A stretch of 64,000 nucleotides of DNA. Origin: Comamonas sp. SCN 67-35 (GTDB lineage: Bacteria; Pseudomonadota; Gammaproteobacteria; Burkholderiales; Burkholderiaceae_C). Position numbers and translations under genes: made by a program. The notes beneath the pieces are model-generated. The model did not search any database. It was given only the letters and a program-made list of their open reading frames with translations, and was not told the DNA's origin. Positions 5,579 through 10,590 of the stretch are shown in pieces; positions within the stretch are counted from its first letter, which is position 1, and every line of letters starts with the position of its first letter. The DNA lies in assembly GCF_001725255.1 (NCBI RefSeq), contig NZ_MEFV01000010.1, forward strand, positions 5,171 through 69,170. The letters run 5' to 3'.

Positions 5579-6358
5579 GTGACCTACGAATGCATCATCA
5601 CCCGCGTCGAAGCCGAAAAGGTCGGCGTGATCCAGCTCAACCGCCCCAAGGCGCTCAACGCCCTGAGCGCGCAGCTCATGATCGAGCTGGGCACGGCCCT
5701 CAAGGCCTTCGACGCCGACGAATCCATAGGCTGCATCGTGCTCACCGGCAGCGAAAAAGCCTTTGCCGCCGGTGCCGACATCACCCTGATGGCCAAGTAC
5801 AGCTTTGCCGACGTCTACAAGAACGACTACATCACGCGCGACTGGGAAACCATCCGCACGATTCGCAAGCCCGTGATCGCCGCCGTGAGCGGCTACGCGC
5901 TGGGCGGCGGCTGCGAGCTGGCCATGATGTGCGACTTCATCATCGCCGCCGACAACGCCCGCTTCGGCCAGCCCGAAATCAAGCTCGGCGTGATCCCCGG
6001 CGCCGGCGGCACGCAGCGCCTGCCGCGCGCCGTGGGCAAGGCCAAGGCCATGGACATGGCGCTCACTGCCCGCATGATGGACGCCGTCGAGGCCGAGCGC
6101 GCGGGGCTCGTGAGCCGTATCGTGGCACTGGACAAGCTGATGGAGGAAGCCCTGGCCGCCGCCCTCACCATCAGCGGCTTCTCGCAGATCGCCGTCATGG
6201 CCGCCAAGGAGTCCGTCAACCGCGCCTTCGAGGGCACGCTCTCCGATGGCGTGATGTTCGAGCGGCGCCTGTTCCATTCGCTCTTTGCCACGCAGGATCA
6301 GAAAGAGGGCATGGACGCCTTCGTCAACAAGCGCCCGGCCAAGTTCACCAACCAGTGA
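5579..6358 (+). CDS. Enoyl-CoA hydratase (crotonase family)
   Basis: [38 protein letters not shown] start at 5579 after an AGGAGA RBS. Confidence 0.92.
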
Positions 6359-6414
6359 AAATTTGCCGCCCGCGCCGGGGTTTTACCTGAAATCCGCTAA
6401 AATGCGCGGCTCCC

Positions 6415-6491
6415 GGTGGTATAGCTCAGTTGGTTAGAGCGCAGCATTCATAATGCTGATGTCCCAGGTTCAAGTCCCGGTACCACCACCA
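6415..6491 (+). tRNA. tRNA-Met (CAT), probably elongator
   Basis: Acceptor stem GGTGGTA/TACCACC, D arm AGCTCAGTTGGTTAGAGC, anticodon arm CAGCA-TTCATAA-TGCTG, T arm GGTTCAAGTCC, encoded CCA; 77 nt. Ile2 (lysidine) identity is not formally excluded. Confidence 0.93.
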
Positions 6492-6497
6492 GATCCC

Positions 6498-6527
6498 GAA
6501 AGCCAGCCTTGCGCTGGCTTTCTTTTT
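6498..6527 (+). terminator. Intrinsic terminator after tRNA-Met
   Basis: GAAAGCCAGC-cttgc-GCTGGCTTTC followed by TTTTT. Confidence 0.85.
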
Positions 6528-6576
6528 GCCCGAATTCTTGTATCGTGCGCGCACTGTATCAACGCGGGACGAAAAA

Positions 6577-7380
6577 ATGGGAGACCCACGCGACCGGGCT
6601 GCTTTCGACGGGCATGATCGCCCCTTCGTGCGGGGGCGATGGATAGGGGCTCTGGCACTGGCCGGTGCGCTGGTGGCAGCTCTGGCCGGCTGCGCGCACA
6701 TGGGCGCGGCCGATGCCCGGCCAGACGCCGAGACGGCACCCGAGCTGGTGCCCCTGGCCAGCGTGGCCCCGGGCGTGCGCCAGGACATGCGTTACCACGG
6801 CCGCCACAACTTCATGGGCCGGCCGGTGGCCGGTTACGAGGCCGCGCGCTGCTGGCTCAGCCGCCCGGCGGCACAGTCACTGGAGGCGGTGCAGCGAGAC
6901 GTCGAGCCGCTGGGCCTGACGCTCAAGGTCTTCGACTGCTACCGGCCGCAGCGCGCGGTCGATGACTTCGTGCGCTGGGGCAAGGATCTGCAGGATCAGA
7001 GTACCAAGGCCGAGTACTACCCGCGCGTGCCCAAGCAGGAGCTGTTCCGGCGTGGCTACATCGCCGAGCGCTCGGGACACAGCCGCGCCAGCACGGTGGA
7101 TGTGACGCTGGTGGTGCTCGATGGCCGGCGTGCGCGCCAGGTGTTGACCGGGCCGCTGGCCGACGGCGGGGAGGTGGACATGGGTACGCCGTTCGACCTG
7201 TTCGACGAGCGCTCGCACACCGCCGACACCAGCCTGGCGCCGGACGTGCAGCGCAACCGCCAGTGGTTGCGCGCGCTGATGCAGCGCCACGGCTGGCGCA
7301 ATCTGCCCGAGGAGTGGTGGCACTACACGCTGGAGCCTGAGCCCTACCCGCAGCGGTATTTCGATGTGCCGGTGCATTAG
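6577..7380 (+). CDS. ddpX: D-Ala-D-Ala dipeptidase (VanX/DdpX, M15D), predicted lipoprotein
   Basis: DCYRPQRAV, SGHSRASTVD, EEWWHY Zn-peptidase motifs; lipobox LAGC after a hydrophobic stretch. Start uncertain. Confidence 0.85.
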   Translation: MGDPRDRAAFDGHDRPFVRGRWIGALALAGALVAALAGCAHMGAADARPDAETAPELVPLASVAPGVRQDMRYHGRHNFMGRPVAGYEAARCWLSRPAAQSLEAVQRDVEPLGLTLKVFDCYRPQRAVDDFVRWGKDLQDQSTKAEYYPRVPKQELFRRGYIAERSGHSRASTVDVTLVVLDGRRARQVLTGPLADGGEVDMGTPFDLFDERSHTADTSLAPDVQRNRQWLRALMQRHGWRNLPEEWWHYTLEPEPYPQRYFDVPVH

Positions 7381-7448
7381 GGCAACGCTGAACGAGCGTC
7401 TCGCGCCTCGCGCGAGCCTGTCCAGCGCCGCTGCAGCCGTTGCCGCGT

Positions 7449-8753
7449 TCAGGCAGGCAGCCGCACCATGCCCGCCGCCGCCGTCTGGTGGCTCGCGTCG
7501 TCGATCAGGATGAAGGCGCCGGTGGCGCGCTCGGCGTTGTAGTCGTCCAGCGCCAGCGCGTCGCGCGTGCGGATCTGCACGCGGCCGATGTCGTTGCTTT
7601 GAAGCGGCTCGCTCGATGCCACGGTGCGCAGTTCGCTGATGTCGCGTTTGGCGGTGATGGCCGTGATGCGCGCCTGCGTGAGGCGCGCACCCTGCTTGAG
7701 CCAGTACCAGCGCGCGGGCTGGAGCGCCTGGCGGTCGAGCCAGCACAGGTCGGCCTCGAATTCGCGTGCCACTTGTGGTAAGGCCCCGGGCGAGACCAGC
7801 AGATCGCCGCGCGAGACATCGATCTCGCGGTCAAGCACGAGGGTGATGCTGTCGCCTGCGGCGGCGGCGTCCAGCAGTTCTTCACCGCGCTGCAGCGCAC
7901 GCACGCGCGCCGCCTCGCCGCTGGGAAGAACCTGCACCTCGTCGCCCACGCGCAGCAGGCCGCCCTGCAACTGCCCGGCGTAGCCGCGAAAGGCCTGGGT
8001 GCTGCTGCCTTCATGGCGGATCACCCATTGCACGAAGAAGCGCACCGCATTTTTCGACGCATCGCCCGCGAGCGGCAGCGATTCGAGCAGCGGCAGCAGC
8101 GGCTCGCCCCCGTACCAGGGCATGTGGCCGCTGGGCTGCACCACGTTGTCACCCGTGAGGGCCGAGAGCGGCACGCAGTGGGGCGCGGCGATGGCCAGGC
8201 GCTGGGCCAGCTCGGCGACGCTCGCGCGGATGCGCTCGAACACCGTTTCGCTCCACTGCACCTGATCCATCTTGTTGATGGCGAAGACGATGTGGCGCAG
8301 GCCCAGCAGCCGCGCCAGCGTGGCGTGGCGCTTGGTCTGGGGCAGCAGCTGGCCGTCTCGCGCGCGTGCGGCGTCGATCAGGATCACGGCGGCGTCGGCC
8401 GTCGAGGTGCCGGTGACCATGTTGCGCGTGTACTGCTCGTGGCCGGGCGCGTCGGCGATGATGAACTTGCGCGCGGGCGTGGCGAAGTAGCGGTAGGCCA
8501 CGTCGATGGTGATGCCCTGCTCGCGCTCGGCCTCCAGGCCGTCGGTGAGCAGCGCCAGGTCCAGCGTGTCGTCCGGCGCGCGCGAGTAGCGCGAACCGGC
8601 GATGGCACTGAGCTGATCGGCGTACACGCCCTTGCTGTCGAGCAGCAGGCGGCCGATCAGCGTGGATTTGCCGTCATCGACGGAGCCGGCGGTGACCAGG
8701 CGCAGCACGCCCCTGTGGCGCGCCTCAGGCCAGAGATCGTTGATCGCATTCAT
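7449..8753 (-). CDS. cysN: Sulfate adenylyltransferase subunit 1 (GTPase), no APS-kinase fusion
   Basis: GSVDDGKSTLIG, REQGITIDVAYRYF, DAPGHEQYTRNM, INKMD. Confidence 0.95.
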   Translation of the reverse strand: MNAINDLWPEARHRGVLRLVTAGSVDDGKSTLIGRLLLDSKGVYADQLSAIAGSRYSRAPDDTLDLALLTDGLEAEREQGITIDVAYRYFATPARKFIIADAPGHEQYTRNMVTGTSTADAAVILIDAARARDGQLLPQTKRHATLARLLGLRHIVFAINKMDQVQWSETVFERIRASVAELAQRLAIAAPHCVPLSALTGDNVVQPSGHMPWYGGEPLLPLLESLPLAGDASKNAVRFFVQWVIRHEGSSTQAFRGYAGQLQGGLLRVGDEVQVLPSGEAARVRALQRGEELLDAAAAGDSITLVLDREIDVSRGDLLVSPGALPQVAREFEADLCWLDRQALQPARWYWLKQGARLTQARITAITAKRDISELRTVASSEPLQSNDIGRVQIRTRDALALDDYNAERATGAFILIDDASHQTAAAGMVRLPA

Positions 8754-9667
8754 CAGAAGTACCCCATTTTCTTGCGTCGTTCCATCGATGCCTCGCTGAG
8801 CTGGTCGTCCATGCGCGTGGCGCCGCGCTCGGTGATGGTGGTCACCGCCGTCTCAGCGATGATGTCGGCGGGCGTGGCGGCGCTGGACGGCACCGGGCAG
8901 GTGCACGAGACATCGCCCACGGTGCGAAAGCGCACCTGCAGCTGCTCCACGGTCTCACCCTCGCGCGCGGGGGTGAGTTCGGTAACGGGCGCGAGCAGTC
9001 CCTTGCGGCGCACGACGGGGCGCACGTGGCTGTAATAGAGCGACGGCAGGGCGAGCCGCTCGCGCTCGATGTACTGCCAGATGTCGAGTTCAGTCCAATT
9101 GGAGATCGGGAACACGCGGATGTTTTCGCCCGGGTGCACGCGCGTGTTGTAGAGATTCCAGAGCTCGGGTCGCTGGTTCTTCGGATCCCACTGGCCGAAC
9201 TCGTCGCGGAACGAGCAGATGCGCTCCTTGGCGCGGGCCTTCTCCTCGTCGCGGCGCGCGCCGCCGATGCAGGCGTCGAAGCGGAACTCGGCGATCGCCT
9301 CCAGCAGCGTGGTGGCCTGCGCAGCATTGCGCGAGTCGGTGGCGTGGCGCAGCACCACGGTGCCGCGTGCCATCGAATCTTCCACGCTGCGCACGATGAG
9401 CCGCTCGCCCAGCTCGGCCGCGCGCTGGTCGCGAAACGCGATCACCTCGGGGAAGTTGTGGCCGGTGTCCACGTGCAGCAGCGGAAACGGAAACTTGCCG
9501 GGGCGAAACGCCTTCTCGGCCAGACGCAGCAGCACGCACGAATCCTTGCCGCCGGAAAACAGCAGCACGGGGCGCTCGCACTCGGCAGCAACTTCGCGCA
9601 GGATGTGGATGGCCTCGGATTCCAGCCAGTCCAGGTGGGTGCGGTGCAAGGTGGTGGTGCTCGTCAT
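8753..9667 (-). CDS. cysD: Sulfate adenylyltransferase subunit 2
   Basis: LFSGGKDS, HVDTGHNF, GGARRDEEKARAKER, ends ERRKKMGYF. Start at ATG 9667. Confidence 0.95.
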   Translation of the reverse strand: MTSTTTLHRTHLDWLESEAIHILREVAAECERPVLLFSGGKDSCVLLRLAEKAFRPGKFPFPLLHVDTGHNFPEVIAFRDQRAAELGERLIVRSVEDSMARGTVVLRHATDSRNAAQATTLLEAIAEFRFDACIGGARRDEEKARAKERICSFRDEFGQWDPKNQRPELWNLYNTRVHPGENIRVFPISNWTELDIWQYIERERLALPSLYYSHVRPVVRRKGLLAPVTELTPAREGETVEQLQVRFRTVGDVSCTCPVPSSAATPADIIAETAVTTITERGATRMDDQLSEASMERRKKMGYF

Positions 9668-9684: not shown

Positions 9685-10590
9685 TCAGGCGGCCGGTGTG
9701 GGGTCGGTGTGTTCGTGGTGGTGGGCATTGACGCTGGTGTGCAGGCCGCACTCGGCGTTGTTCCTCTGCTCCCACCACCAGCGGCCGGCGCGGATGTCCT
9801 CGCCGGGGCGGATCGCGCGCGTGCAGCACTCGCAGCCGATGGAGGGGTAGCCACGGTCGTGCAGCGGGTTGTAGGGAATGCCGAGCGCCCGCACCACGGC
9901 CCAGACCTCGTCGGTGCTCCAGCTCGCGAGCGGGTTGTACTTGTGCAGGCCGAAGGCCTCGTCCCACTGCGTTTCGGGCAGCTCGGCGCGCGTGCTCGAT
10001 TGCTCGCGCCGCTGGCCGGTGATCCAGGCCGAGTGCCCGGCGAGCGCCCGGCGCAGTGGCTCGACCTTGCGGATGTCGCAGCAGAGCTTGCGCAGTTCCA
10101 CGCTCTCATAGAAGGCGTTCAGACCGTGGGTGGCGATGTAGTCCTTCACGGCTTCCGGCTTTGGGTGCATGAGCTGCACGTTGATGCCGTAGCGCTGCTC
10201 GATCACGCCGACCATGTCCAGCGTTTCCTGGTGCAGGCGGCCGGTGTCGAGCATGAACACGCCTGGGAACCTGCCGGACTTGGAAGTCGCCGGCTGCAAA
10301 TCGACCGCAGCGGCCCATTTTTCACCGTCTTTTTGCCCAATAGCTCGGCTATTGGGCTGCAAATTCGGCAAAAACTGATCTCGCTGGGGCCGATTTTCGC
10401 TATCGGCGCTCCAAGTCCGACAGGCTCCCGGGCGTGTGGGCAGCTGCATCAGCGCGTGGATGAGCAGCGTGTCTTCCACGCCCATGGACGAGGCGAGCAG
10501 CGCGTCCGGGTGTTCCTGCGCGATGCCGTCGAGCAGTTGCAGCAGCGCGTTCCAGCGGTCGGCCAGTGGGGTGGTCAAGGGGCTTGCCAT
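9685..10590 (-). CDS. cysH: APS/PAPS reductase (Fe-S APS-reductase type) with a 55-aa in-frame insertion
   Basis: SSMGVED, LDTGRLH, LCCDIRKVEPL, WITGQRREQS, SIGCECCTR, RAGRW, ECGLH. The insertion lies between LPTRP and GVFMLDTG. Confidence 0.9.
   Translation of the reverse strand: MASPLTTPLADRWNALLQLLDGIAQEHPDALLASSMGVEDTLLIHALMQLPTRPGACRTWSADSENRPQRDQFLPNLQPNSRAIGQKDGEKWAAAVDLQPATSKSGRFPGVFMLDTGRLHQETLDMVGVIEQRYGINVQLMHPKPEAVKDYIATHGLNAFYESVELRKLCCDIRKVEPLRRALAGHSAWITGQRREQSSTRAELPETQWDEAFGLHKYNPLASWSTDEVWAVVRALGIPYNPLHDRGYPSIGCECCTRAIRPGEDIRAGRWWWEQRNNAECGLHTSVNAHHHEHTDPTPAA
10265..10429. mobile_element. 165-bp MITE-like palindromic element inserted in frame in cysH
   Basis: 20-bp terminal inverted repeats GGGAACCTGCCGGACTTGGA / TCCAAGTCCGACAGGCTCCC (18/20 match). 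Central hairpin GCCCAATAGC-tcg-GCTATTGGGC (10335-10357). Length is a multiple of 3, and removal restores a canonical CysH spacing. Confidence 0.85.

What the first reader, a model, noticed from the sequence alone, without database searches (positions are those of the whole stretch)
10265..10429. Protein-coding MITE: 165-bp palindromic element inserted in frame in cysH, adding a 55-aa peptide
Seen: 20-bp terminal inverted repeats (18/20 match), a central 10-bp hairpin and a length of exactly 55 codons with no stop in the cysH frame. The inserted peptide is GACRTWSADSENRPQRDQFLPNLQPNSRAIGQKDGEKWAAAVDLQPATSKSGRFP. Excision gives ...SSMGVEDTLLIHALMQLPTRPGVFMLDTGRLH, the normal spacing between the PP-loop-like motif and the LDTG motif. 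All downstream motifs (CC, CxxC, ECGLH) are intact. Knowledge: Rickettsia palindromic elements insert in frame into genes and are translated as surface peptides. Inference: an analogous element creating new protein sequence in a betaproteobacterial enzyme, probably in a surface loop before the LDTG strand. This is the most striking feature of the window.
Basis: partly seen in the sequence, partly recalled or inferred. Interest (0 to 1): 0.85.

Follow-up and report, generated by a model that had tools for sequence, protein, structure and literature searches.

The report
Mobile hairpin element translated inside cysH
A 165-base hairpin-shaped mobile DNA element sits exactly in frame inside the sulfate-assimilation gene cysH, adding a 55-residue loop. 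The same element family does this in dozens of unrelated enzymes of free-living Comamonadaceae, much as the Rickettsia palindromic elements do in Rickettsia.

Summary
Window 10265-10429 is a near-perfect 165-nt hairpin (RNA dG -104 kcal/mol, z -11) inside cysH (9685-10590, minus strand). It adds exactly the stated 55 residues.

- **Empty site:** all other CysH homologues are about 246-247 aa. The nearest ones read R-L-G (CGC CTG GGC) at the site.
- **Not an artefact:** two independent metagenome contigs carry the same insertion.
- **Family:** it belongs to a very widespread family of about 169-bp hairpin MITEs bounded by CTAG. Their outermost bases and CTAG flanks match the IS1182-family element ISKpn6. 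The scan had met this family on other DNA.
- **Geometry:** in the Comamonadaceae subfamily, a 161-bp core plus 4 bp gives 165 bp (55 codons). The consensus is open in the two phases in which CTAG can occur inside a gene.
- **Recurrence:** at least 58 protein clusters carry the same peptide. It splits real domains such as PdxA, Ddl, HypD, ABC ATPase, KsgA and UvrA.
- **Structure:** AlphaFold places the cysH insert as a low-confidence loop between helix 38-48 and strand 110-114. All catalytic motifs are intact.
- **Age:** an orthologous insert elsewhere has outlasted host divergence of dS 0.38.

This is a new member of a known kind (RPE-like).

The parts
9685..10590 (-). cysH, an assimilatory APS/PAPS reductase of the [4Fe-4S] type, 301 aa including the insert
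   Evidence: ORF and translation. Pfam PAPS_reduct 3.7e-40. Best solved relative is 2GOY, the P. aeruginosa APS reductase. CC, CxxC and ECGLH are conserved.
10265..10429 (-).
   Evidence: Absent from all 13 other CysH homologues aligned, all of which are shorter. Single long hairpin, z -11.3. Peptide confirmed.
10267..10427 (-). Canonical 161-bp MITE core (GAGCC...GGTTC on the coding strand)
   Evidence: Register taken from about 230 family copies whose cores are bounded by CTAG. 88-89% identical to L042 and L065.
10410..10427 (-). Left terminal inverted repeat on the coding strand (GAGCCTGTCGGACTTGGA), identical to the family consensus
10267..10284 (-). Right terminal inverted repeat, with 2 departures from consensus (GGTTC for GGCTC; CCGGCAG for CCGACAG)
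   Evidence: The allele in L213 still has CCGACAG.
10428..10431 (-). Upstream junction tetranucleotide CCGG, where the family has CTAG. It gives Pro where other in-frame copies have Leu.
10263..10266 (-). Downstream junction tetranucleotide CCAG on the coding strand, where the family has CTAG. It gives Pro-Gly where orthologues have Leu-Gly.
10335..10357 (.). Apical 10-bp perfect stem with a 3-nt loop at the centre of the element
   Evidence: (I5).
8753..9667 (-). cysD, starting about 17 nt after the cysH stop. It depends on transcription, and probably on translation, running through cysH.
   Evidence: ORF list. Synteny with L002: cysJ-cysI-cysG-cysH-cysD-cysN.

Best explanation
The 165 bp are a fossil copy of a non-autonomous transposon (MITE). 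It belongs to a widespread family of about 169-bp hairpin elements bounded by CTAG, with IS1182-type ends.

It landed in a Leu-Gly site of cysH. The site was probably CTA|GGC, a synonymous variant of the CTG GGC seen in relatives.

In the Comamonadaceae subfamily, the 161-bp core plus 4 bp (or 163 bp plus a duplicated TA) adds 165 bp, which is 55 codons. The downstream frame is therefore kept. In this orientation the CTA-phase frame of the element has no stop.

The gene is therefore read straight through. The product is a CysH with a hydrophilic, probably disordered 55-residue excursion in the loop between the helix after the PP-loop and the LDTG strand. On the adenine-nucleotide alpha-hydrolase fold this is the edge of the sheet away from the nucleotide site. 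The enzyme most likely still works.

Shown here:
- the insertion and the empty site;
- membership of the family;
- the frame logic;
- the recurrence in many other genes;
- the fold placement.

Inferred:
- the ancestral CTA codon;
- translation of the insert;
- retained enzyme activity;
- the transposase responsible.
For: **Empty site and insertion**
- Apart from the window's own cluster, every listed CysH homologue is shorter (mostly about 246-247 aa). All 13 aligned lack the segment.
- The DNA of four orthologous loci reads CGC CTG GGC at the site.
- The same insertion, with the same junctions, is on independent contigs L001 (0 differences in the element) and L213 (2 differences).
- The protein cluster has 21 members on at least 30 contigs; the 15 listed are full-length or truncated forms of this protein, and all 6 read carry the insert.

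**Family**
They come from many phyla.
- Cores are 158-162 bp, with CTAG on about 75-85% of each side.
- The closest copies are 77-89% identical.
- ISKpn6 (IS1182 family) is bounded by CTAG|GAGYCTG, like the MITE.

**Frame logic**
- The consensus of 87 copies is open only in the CTA|G phase in one orientation and the nCT|AGn phase in the other. 79 of 87 copies are open in the former.

**Recurrence**
- Aminotran_3 and PdxA are split in Extensimonas perlucida.
- 58 protein clusters carry the peptide at 61-87% identity; 39 of 57 have it internally.
- Split domains were confirmed for ABC_tran, HypD, RrnaAD, Dala_Dala_lig_C, DAO, DGOK, Metallophos and others, and for UvrA, FAD_binding_5 and UvrD.
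- 333 cluster representatives match in the exhaustive search.

**Tolerance**
- AlphaFold gives the core pLDDT above 90. The insert (56-106) has pLDDT below 50 and lies between H38-48 and E110-114.
- The peptide has GRAVY -1.08.
- No terminator-like site is predicted in the element.

**Persistence**
- An orthologous insert in a metallophosphoesterase survived host divergence of dS 0.375. It is intact, with 92% nucleotide identity and dN/dS 0.35.
Against:
- A hairpin of about -104 kcal/mol in the mRNA could be an RNase III substrate, or could slow ribosomes, lowering CysH and the downstream CysDN.
- This copy shows no visible duplication. Its junctions are CCGG and CCAG, so the CTAG target is inferred from the family and from the Leu codon of orthologues.
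The window holds only this copy.
- No autonomous parent with matching ends was found.
- The low pLDDT of the insert may reflect the shallow alignment there rather than true disorder.
Confidence: 0.8

Rival explanations
1. The insertion has inactivated CysH, or strongly reduced it and the downstream cysDN through mRNA cleavage at the hairpin. The open frame is then only what one expects from a 165-bp, stop-free element, and the gene is on its way to decay.
For: No functional data could be obtained. The mRNA hairpin is very stable and is not weakened in intragenic copies. An in-frame, stop-free outcome needs no selection, given the element's geometry.
Against: - The junctions and one terminus have mutated since insertion, yet the 906-bp ORF and every catalytic motif are intact.
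- The insertion allele is the only one seen for this lineage, on many contigs and in several variants.
- The flanking cysG and cysD are intact.
- In other genomes the same element sits in genes that are normally indispensable, such as ddl and pdxA.
- An orthologous insert has persisted through host dS 0.375 under host omega 0.22.
Confidence: 0.12
2. The inserted segment has been taken over for a function of its own. It could act as a protein loop (interaction or regulation) or as an RNA hairpin that sets the stability or processing of the cysG-cysH-cysDN transcript. In that case it is kept by selection rather than merely tolerated.
For: In the one orthologous pair available, the insert evolves 4-5 times slower than the host's synonymous rate, with dN/dS 0.35. 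Hairpin stability is fully kept in intragenic copies. Both junction Leu codons became Pro in cysH, and Leu-to-Pro at junctions recurs in other hosts.
Against: - Private substitutions create stops in the coding frame as often as expected (6 of 96 against 5.2 expected).
- The same peptide sits in dozens of unrelated proteins, which argues for tolerance rather than a specific role.
- Slow evolution could come from gene conversion between copies, or from the few sites counted (13 differences).
- CTAG to CCAG or CTGG is also the commonest decay at intergenic copies.
Confidence: 0.06
3. The 55 residues are an ancestral or lineage-specific CysH loop unrelated to mobile DNA, or the segment is an assembly artefact.
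For: None beyond its uniqueness among CysH proteins.
Against: Full-length DNA similarity of 77-89% to dispersed copies in other genomes, most of them between genes. The GC drop and perfect hairpin architecture. Absence from all 13 other CysH homologues aligned, all of which are shorter. Independent contigs with identical junctions.
Confidence: 0.01

Closest known systems
Rickettsia palindromic elements (RPEs; Ogata et al. 2000 and 2002, as summarised in the review PMC10969869)
   Same: A palindromic repeat of about 150 bp that is found in frame inside many unrelated housekeeping genes. It encodes a conserved peptide and is placed where the host fold tolerates it.
   Different: I know of no sequence relation, and none was tested. 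The hosts here are free-living, high-GC Comamonadaceae rather than reduced obligate intracellular bacteria. This family has a defined CTAG target and IS1182-type ends, and most copies are intergenic (about 4-10% of sampled copies are in frame inside genes). For RPEs the review reports that nearly half the copies are inside ORFs.
IS1182-family insertion sequences and their CTAG-targeting MITEs (e.g. ISKpn6 of Tn4401)
   Same: ISKpn6 in pKpQIL is bounded by CTAG on both sides, and its ends begin GAG(C/T)CTG, as this MITE's do. The size class and hairpin shape match the MITEs that earlier notes of this scan tie to IS1182.
   Different: Beyond the first 7 nt the ends differ (CGCGGCAGA against TCGGACTTG). 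The true parent element was not found. Those MITEs are described as intergenic or stop-codon-associated, not as habitually translated.
Enterobacterial ERIC/RU-1, YPAL/RU-2 and RU-3 repeats with ORFs found intragenically (Delihas 2007, PMC2759123)
   Same: Small hairpin repeats (RU-2 is 168 bp) with TA at the ends. They carry an open frame and are occasionally fused to host ORFs.
   Different: The RU-2 sequence is unrelated. The examples given are mostly N- or C-terminal fusions to hypothetical or exported proteins, not mid-domain insertions in conserved enzymes.
QMITE1 of Coxiella burnetii and MITEs of Anabaena PCC 7120 that alter ORFs (cited in PMC10969869; PMC5896051)
   Same: MITEs whose internal ORF can fuse in frame with host genes.
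   Different: They are different families in different hosts, with a smaller reported scale. I did not compare sequences.

Membership tests
Prokaryotic MITE (non-autonomous DDE-transposon derivative) | Short element without a transposase gene, bounded by terminal inverted repeats | tested here: met
   A 161-bp core with 18-20-nt TIRs matching at 18 of 20 positions. The only ORF through it is the host frame.
Prokaryotic MITE (non-autonomous DDE-transposon derivative) | Many dispersed copies at unrelated loci | tested here: met
   At least 240 loci in genomes and metagenomes, with both scans stopped at their limits. Several copies occur per genome in Extensimonas (L022, L059, L090; L100, L121).
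Prokaryotic MITE (non-autonomous DDE-transposon derivative) | Target-site duplication and an empty site in relatives | tested here: inconclusive
   The empty site is shown. The family is flanked by CTAG on both sides in 59 of 107 copies. The outer bases vary more than the inner ones, which fits a TA duplication within CTAG. This copy's junctions are CCGG and CCAG, so its own duplication is no longer visible.
Prokaryotic MITE (non-autonomous DDE-transposon derivative) | An autonomous element with the same ends that could mobilise it | tested here: inconclusive
   ISKpn6 shares the CTAG flanks and the first 7 nt only. No element with GAGCCTGTCGGACT ends spaced 0.7-2.6 kb apart was found in 1.7 Mb of loci, nor in plasmids.
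RPE-like 'protein-coding palindromes' | The same repeat lies in frame inside many unrelated conserved genes and encodes a conserved peptide | tested here: met
   58 clusters at 61-87% peptide identity, 39 of 57 internal. Split Pfam domains were confirmed in more than 20 proteins. 333 representatives match.
RPE-like 'protein-coding palindromes' | The insertion point is compatible with the host fold (a surface loop) | tested here: met
   For CysH only: the insert lies between H38-48 and E110-114, the core has pLDDT above 90, and the site maps to the loop AWKLNRNV of 2GOY. Not modelled for the other hosts.
RPE-like 'protein-coding palindromes' | The insert is transcribed and translated with the host protein | not testable with these tools
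RPE-like 'protein-coding palindromes' | Sequence homology to one of the described RPE families | not tested
   No RPE sequence was at hand. The hosts and base composition make homology unlikely, so I claim 'works like', not membership.
Assimilatory APS reductase (CysH, [4Fe-4S] class) | PAPS_reduct domain, the CC...CxxC cluster cysteines and the C-terminal ECGLH catalytic cysteine | tested here: met
   Pfam 3.7e-40. C170, C171, C253, C256 and E280-H284 are invariant. Best structure is 2GOY, 5e-54.

The most novel reading that the evidence does not exclude
The Comamonadaceae subfamily of this CTAG-targeting MITE is adapted to live inside coding sequence.
- Its net length is a whole number of codons.
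- Its consensus is open in exactly the two phases in which CTAG can occur in a gene.
- The commoner product is a hydrophilic, loop-like 55-mer.
- Once inserted, the segment is conserved well below the neutral rate.

That would make it a second large-scale system of 'protein-coding palindromes'. It would be in free-living bacteria, and it would seed new surface loops in core enzymes (CysH, PdxA, Ddl, HypD, UvrA and others).
Probability: 0.25. Interest if true: 0.8.

Novelty: new member of a known kind. Interest (0 to 1): 0.6.

Why it matters
In-frame survival of mobile DNA inside essential bacterial genes is textbook only for Rickettsia. There it is usually linked to relaxed selection in a reduced intracellular genome, and a 2024 review still treats it as exceptional (PMC10969869).

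Here the same behaviour is seen for a different element in large-genome, free-living Betaproteobacteria. There is a simple geometric explanation:
- a CTAG target;
- 165 bp, equal to 55 codons;
- one stop-free orientation for each admissible phase.

This gives a tractable system for three questions.
- How do enzymes tolerate 55-residue loop insertions?
- How do ribosomes cope with a 70-bp hairpin inside an ORF?
- Do such inserts become raw material for new protein features?

It is also a practical annotation point. These inserts split Pfam domains and shift gene calls; two cluster members (P0122, 297 aa; P0124, 254 aa) are N-terminally shorter versions of this same CysH.

Tried and rejected
1. 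**IS630 parent.** I first assumed an IS630-type parent from the CTAG/TA target. Checking ISKpn6 showed that IS1182-type ends fit: CTAG plus GAGYCTG. The exact parent was not found.
2. **Relation to Yersinia RU-2/YPAL (168 bp).** The sequences are unrelated.
3. **Rfam.** No family matches. The only hit is a sub-threshold chance match outside the element.
4. **Palindromic target preference.** The 7-nt inverted flanks at cysH (ACACGCC / GGCGTGT) suggested one. Across 124 copies, flank complementarity is at chance, about 25% per position, so this is coincidence.
5. **Selection keeping the ORF open.** A star-phylogeny simulation gave an excess of open copies (79 against 55-62). The stricter singleton test is negative (6 of 96 against 5.2), and control frames show similar trends among shared variants. 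The open frame is therefore best read as a founder property.
6. **Weaker hairpins in translated copies.** There is no difference (median -113.4 against -113.1 kcal/mol, p 0.98).
7. **'Always 165 bp'.** This is true only for the 161-bp core class. The wider family has cores of 158-162 bp.
8. **Plasmid collection.** It holds no copies.
9. Own-genome copy number, a second cysH, and read-level or RNA evidence could not be obtained.

Full report
**Observation.**
The ORF at 9685-10590 (minus strand) encodes a 301-aa PAPS_reduct protein.
- The 20-nt termini match at 18 of 20 positions. Shuffles of the window gave none.
- The central 10-bp stem is perfect.
- The whole 165 nt folds into one long hairpin: -103.7 kcal/mol, z = -11.3.
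- GC content is 58%, against 68% in the rest of the gene.
- Translation in the cysH frame gives the stated 55 residues without a stop.
- The window holds no second copy.

**Empty site and reality of the insertion.**
Among the 120 best CysH homologues listed (of 7,993 matching), every one is shorter than the query except one cluster that is 99% identical to it; most are about 246-247 aa.
In the alignment the 55 residues are a clean gap in all 13 others, and the flanks are conserved.
The nearest empty-site orthologues are from Comamonas sp. assemblies and are 87-92% identical outside the insert. They read ACG CGC CTG GGC GTG TTC (R-L-G-V-F). The window reads CGC CCG | GGA GCC ... AGG TTC CCA | GGC GTG.
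Two independent metagenome contigs carry the same insertion with the same junctions.
- L001 has no difference within the element.
- L213 has two differences, and one of them restores the family consensus in the right terminus.
The protein cluster has 21 members. One is the window's exact protein, seen on 30 contigs. The six members I read all carry the insert, and two of them have point variants within it.
An assembly artefact and an ancestral loop are therefore excluded.

**What the element is.**
A scan of one genome per species for the two termini at the right spacing stopped at its 120-locus limit. Hits came from Proteobacteria, Desulfobacterota, Nitrospira, Acidobacteriota, Verrucomicrobia, Lentisphaerae, Spirochaetes and others.
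The copies have cores of 158-162 bp and the architecture CTAG-GAGC-CTGTCGGACT...AGTCCGACAG-GCTC-CTAG. CTAG is present on the left in 81 and on the right in 71 of 107 copies.
The outer base of each CTAG varies more than the inner one: 20 against 6 departures. This fits an element running G...C that duplicates TA inside a preferred CTAG.
The commonest decay products are CTGG and CCAG. The cysH copy has CCGG and CCAG.
Earlier notes of this scan had met this family on other DNA and tied similar elements to IS1182-type insertion sequences. I tested that lead. ISKpn6 in plasmid pKpQIL is bounded by CTAG|GAGTCTG... and CTAG|GAGCCTG..., that is, the same flanks and the same first seven bases, after which the sequences differ.
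The actual parent was not found in 1.7 Mb of fetched loci or in the plasmid collection. Rfam has no matching family.

**The subfamily and the frame logic.**
About 20 genome copies are 77-89% identical to the cysH copy over the full length. They come from Acidovorax, Extensimonas, Ottowia and unnamed Comamonadaceae and Burkholderiales. A metagenome scan for this 'TTGG' subfamily again hit its 120-locus limit.
In this subfamily the core is 161 bp, so an insertion adds 165 bp, which is 55 codons.
The consensus of 87 copies is open in exactly two of six frames:
- the CTA|GGA|GCC phase in one orientation, giving LGACRTWGVESENRPQRGQFLPDLQPHSPAMGQKDGEKWTAAVDLQPTIPKSDRLL;
- the nCT|AGG phase in the opposite orientation, giving a Cys/Trp-rich peptide.
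The third phase would put TAG in frame, so it cannot exist inside a gene. Each phase in which a gene can contain CTAG therefore has one orientation that reads through.
The first frame is open in 79 of 87 copies, most of them between genes. Outside the subfamily it is open in only 6 of 164 orientations.
A simple simulation suggested more open copies than neutral decay allows. The stricter test on private substitutions is negative (6 of 96 stop-creating against 5.2 expected), and control frames behave similarly. I therefore treat the open frame as a founder property, not as proven selection.

**Recurrence in other genes.**
Two genome copies in Extensimonas perlucida lie in frame inside a class-III aminotransferase and inside PdxA. 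Each Pfam domain is split in two.
Searching the protein database with the insert region alone found 58 clusters carrying the peptide at 61-87% identity, 47 of them with Pfam domains. In 39 of 57 the peptide has at least 40 residues on both sides.
Pfam scans confirmed interrupted or spanned domains in:
- an ABC ATPase, HypD, KsgA/RsmA and D-Ala-D-Ala ligase;
- a DAO oxidoreductase and 2-keto-3-deoxygalactonokinase;
- metallophosphoesterases, PanE and MTHFS;
- an EcoO109I-type endonuclease and a GNAT.
Three of the matching proteins carry isolate names: Ramlibacter (the endonuclease), Serpentinimonas barnesii (a metallophosphoesterase) and Polaromonas (an ABC substrate-binding protein).
Junctions are nearly always ...L-GACRTW... 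and ...SDRL-L-[G/A/D/E/V], as expected for CTA|G sites.
In the metagenome sample, 5 of 120 copies are in frame inside real genes: a fused UvrA, a metallophosphoesterase, an FAD_binding_5 subunit, a UvrD-type helicase in the second phase, and cysH itself.
An exhaustive HMMER search of 1.84 billion cluster representatives gave 333 matches, 145 of them at 1e-10 or better. This is a lower bound, because clusters whose representative lacks the insert, such as CysH, are invisible.
The second permissive frame is much rarer in real proteins: 20 clusters, 6 with a Pfam domain. This fits a filter at the level of what proteins tolerate, although target frequencies were not normalised.

**Effect on CysH.**
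AlphaFold2 with a 68-sequence alignment folds the core with pLDDT above 90. Residues 56-106 come out as a low-confidence excursion between helix 38-48 and strand 110-114. The low confidence may partly reflect the thin alignment there.
The closest solved structure is the P. aeruginosa APS reductase 2GOY. The site maps to its loop AWKLNRNV, before the strand that ends in LDTG.
From the known topology of this alpha/beta fold, that loop is on the edge of the sheet opposite the nucleotide site. This is an inference.
The peptide is strongly hydrophilic: GRAVY -1.08, and 44% of residues are P, G, S, Q, N or T.
The PP-loop-like motif, LDTG, the CC...CxxC cysteines and ECGLH are intact. cysG and cysD flank the gene as in relatives. 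No terminator-like site is predicted in the element.

**Persistence.**
Two Serpentinimonas-type lineages share one insertion in a metallophosphoesterase, with the same derived junction.
- The host gene has diverged to dS 0.375 (omega 0.22).
- The insert is intact and 92% identical at DNA level (dS 0.16, omega 0.35; 13 differences).
Hairpin stability does not differ between in-frame and other copies (median -113.4 against -113.1 kcal/mol).
In-frame copies can therefore be old, and they evolve slower than neutral. I cannot separate nucleotide-level constraint, protein-level constraint and gene conversion.

**Comparison with the literature.**
The behaviour is that of the Rickettsia palindromic elements, which a 2024 review still presents as the outstanding case. 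Smaller-scale examples are ERIC/RU elements, Coxiella QMITE1 and Anabaena MITEs.
I found no description of this family or of such behaviour in Comamonadaceae in the searchable library. That library lacks most subscription journals.

**Verdict.**
The finding is one instance of a broader, apparently undescribed, RPE-like habit of an IS1182-type MITE subfamily. Translation and enzyme activity remain to be shown.

Noticed in passing
L006-L125 (genome-contig loci), e.g. L016 3610-3762, L084 2452-2603, L110 123-276: The same hairpin MITE architecture of about 169 bp, with near-identical outer 14-18 nt (CTAG-GAGC-CTGTCGGACT), occurs in many phyla: Nitrospira, Verrucomicrobia, Spirochaetes, Acidobacteriota, Desulfobacterota. 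The inner arms differ between lineages yet stay self-complementary. This implies either very wide horizontal spread of the mobilising IS or strong convergence on hairpin form.
   Followed up: partly
P0190 (Ddl), P0158, P0187; P0153, P0176, P0186: Some in-frame copies carry extra in-frame blocks inside the peptide. In P0190, P0158 and P0187 the block VLEERRSQ (VLEERLNQ in one arm of P0187) appears once in each arm of the hairpin. Other copies have RRFHQN or RRFRQN in one arm. Mirror-image expansion of both arms suggests hairpin-templated copying.
   Followed up: no
P0135 and P0138: A P-type ATPase fragment (P0135) and an unrelated 238-aa protein with no Pfam domain on record (P0138) share an identical C-terminal 59 residues downstream of the MITE peptide. 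One of the two may be a chimera formed by recombination between MITE copies, or a gene call running through an intergenic copy.
   Followed up: no
window 10263-10266 and 10428-10431; family flanks: The commonest departures from CTAG at element junctions are CCAG and CTGG, that is, transitions in the TA. In coding copies this recurrently turns the junction Leu (CTA) into Pro (CCA or CCG). It could reflect CTAG avoidance or very-short-patch-type repair, or selection for Pro at the loop base.
   Followed up: partly
window 10257-10263 and 10431-10437: The host bases flanking the insertion (ACACGCC / GGCGTGT) are themselves a 7-nt inverted repeat, which extends the apparent TIR to 28 nt. Across 124 other copies, flank complementarity is at chance level, so this looks coincidental.
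   Followed up: yes
L086 6951-7103 (minus-strand ORF 6173-7438) and P0183: Uroporphyrinogen-III synthase (HemD) genes of two betaproteobacterial MAGs have a copy of the element in two different places. One is just upstream of, or in an N-terminal extension of, the HEM4 domain. The other is inside the domain near its C-terminal end. These are independent hits on the same gene family.
   Followed up: partly
P0122, P0124: Two cluster members are N-terminally shorter versions of this same CysH (297 aa and 254 aa). The 254-aa one starts at MQLPTR just before the insert and so loses the PP-loop-like motif. I did not fetch their DNA, so a different start call and an upstream lesion are both possible.
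   Followed up: no
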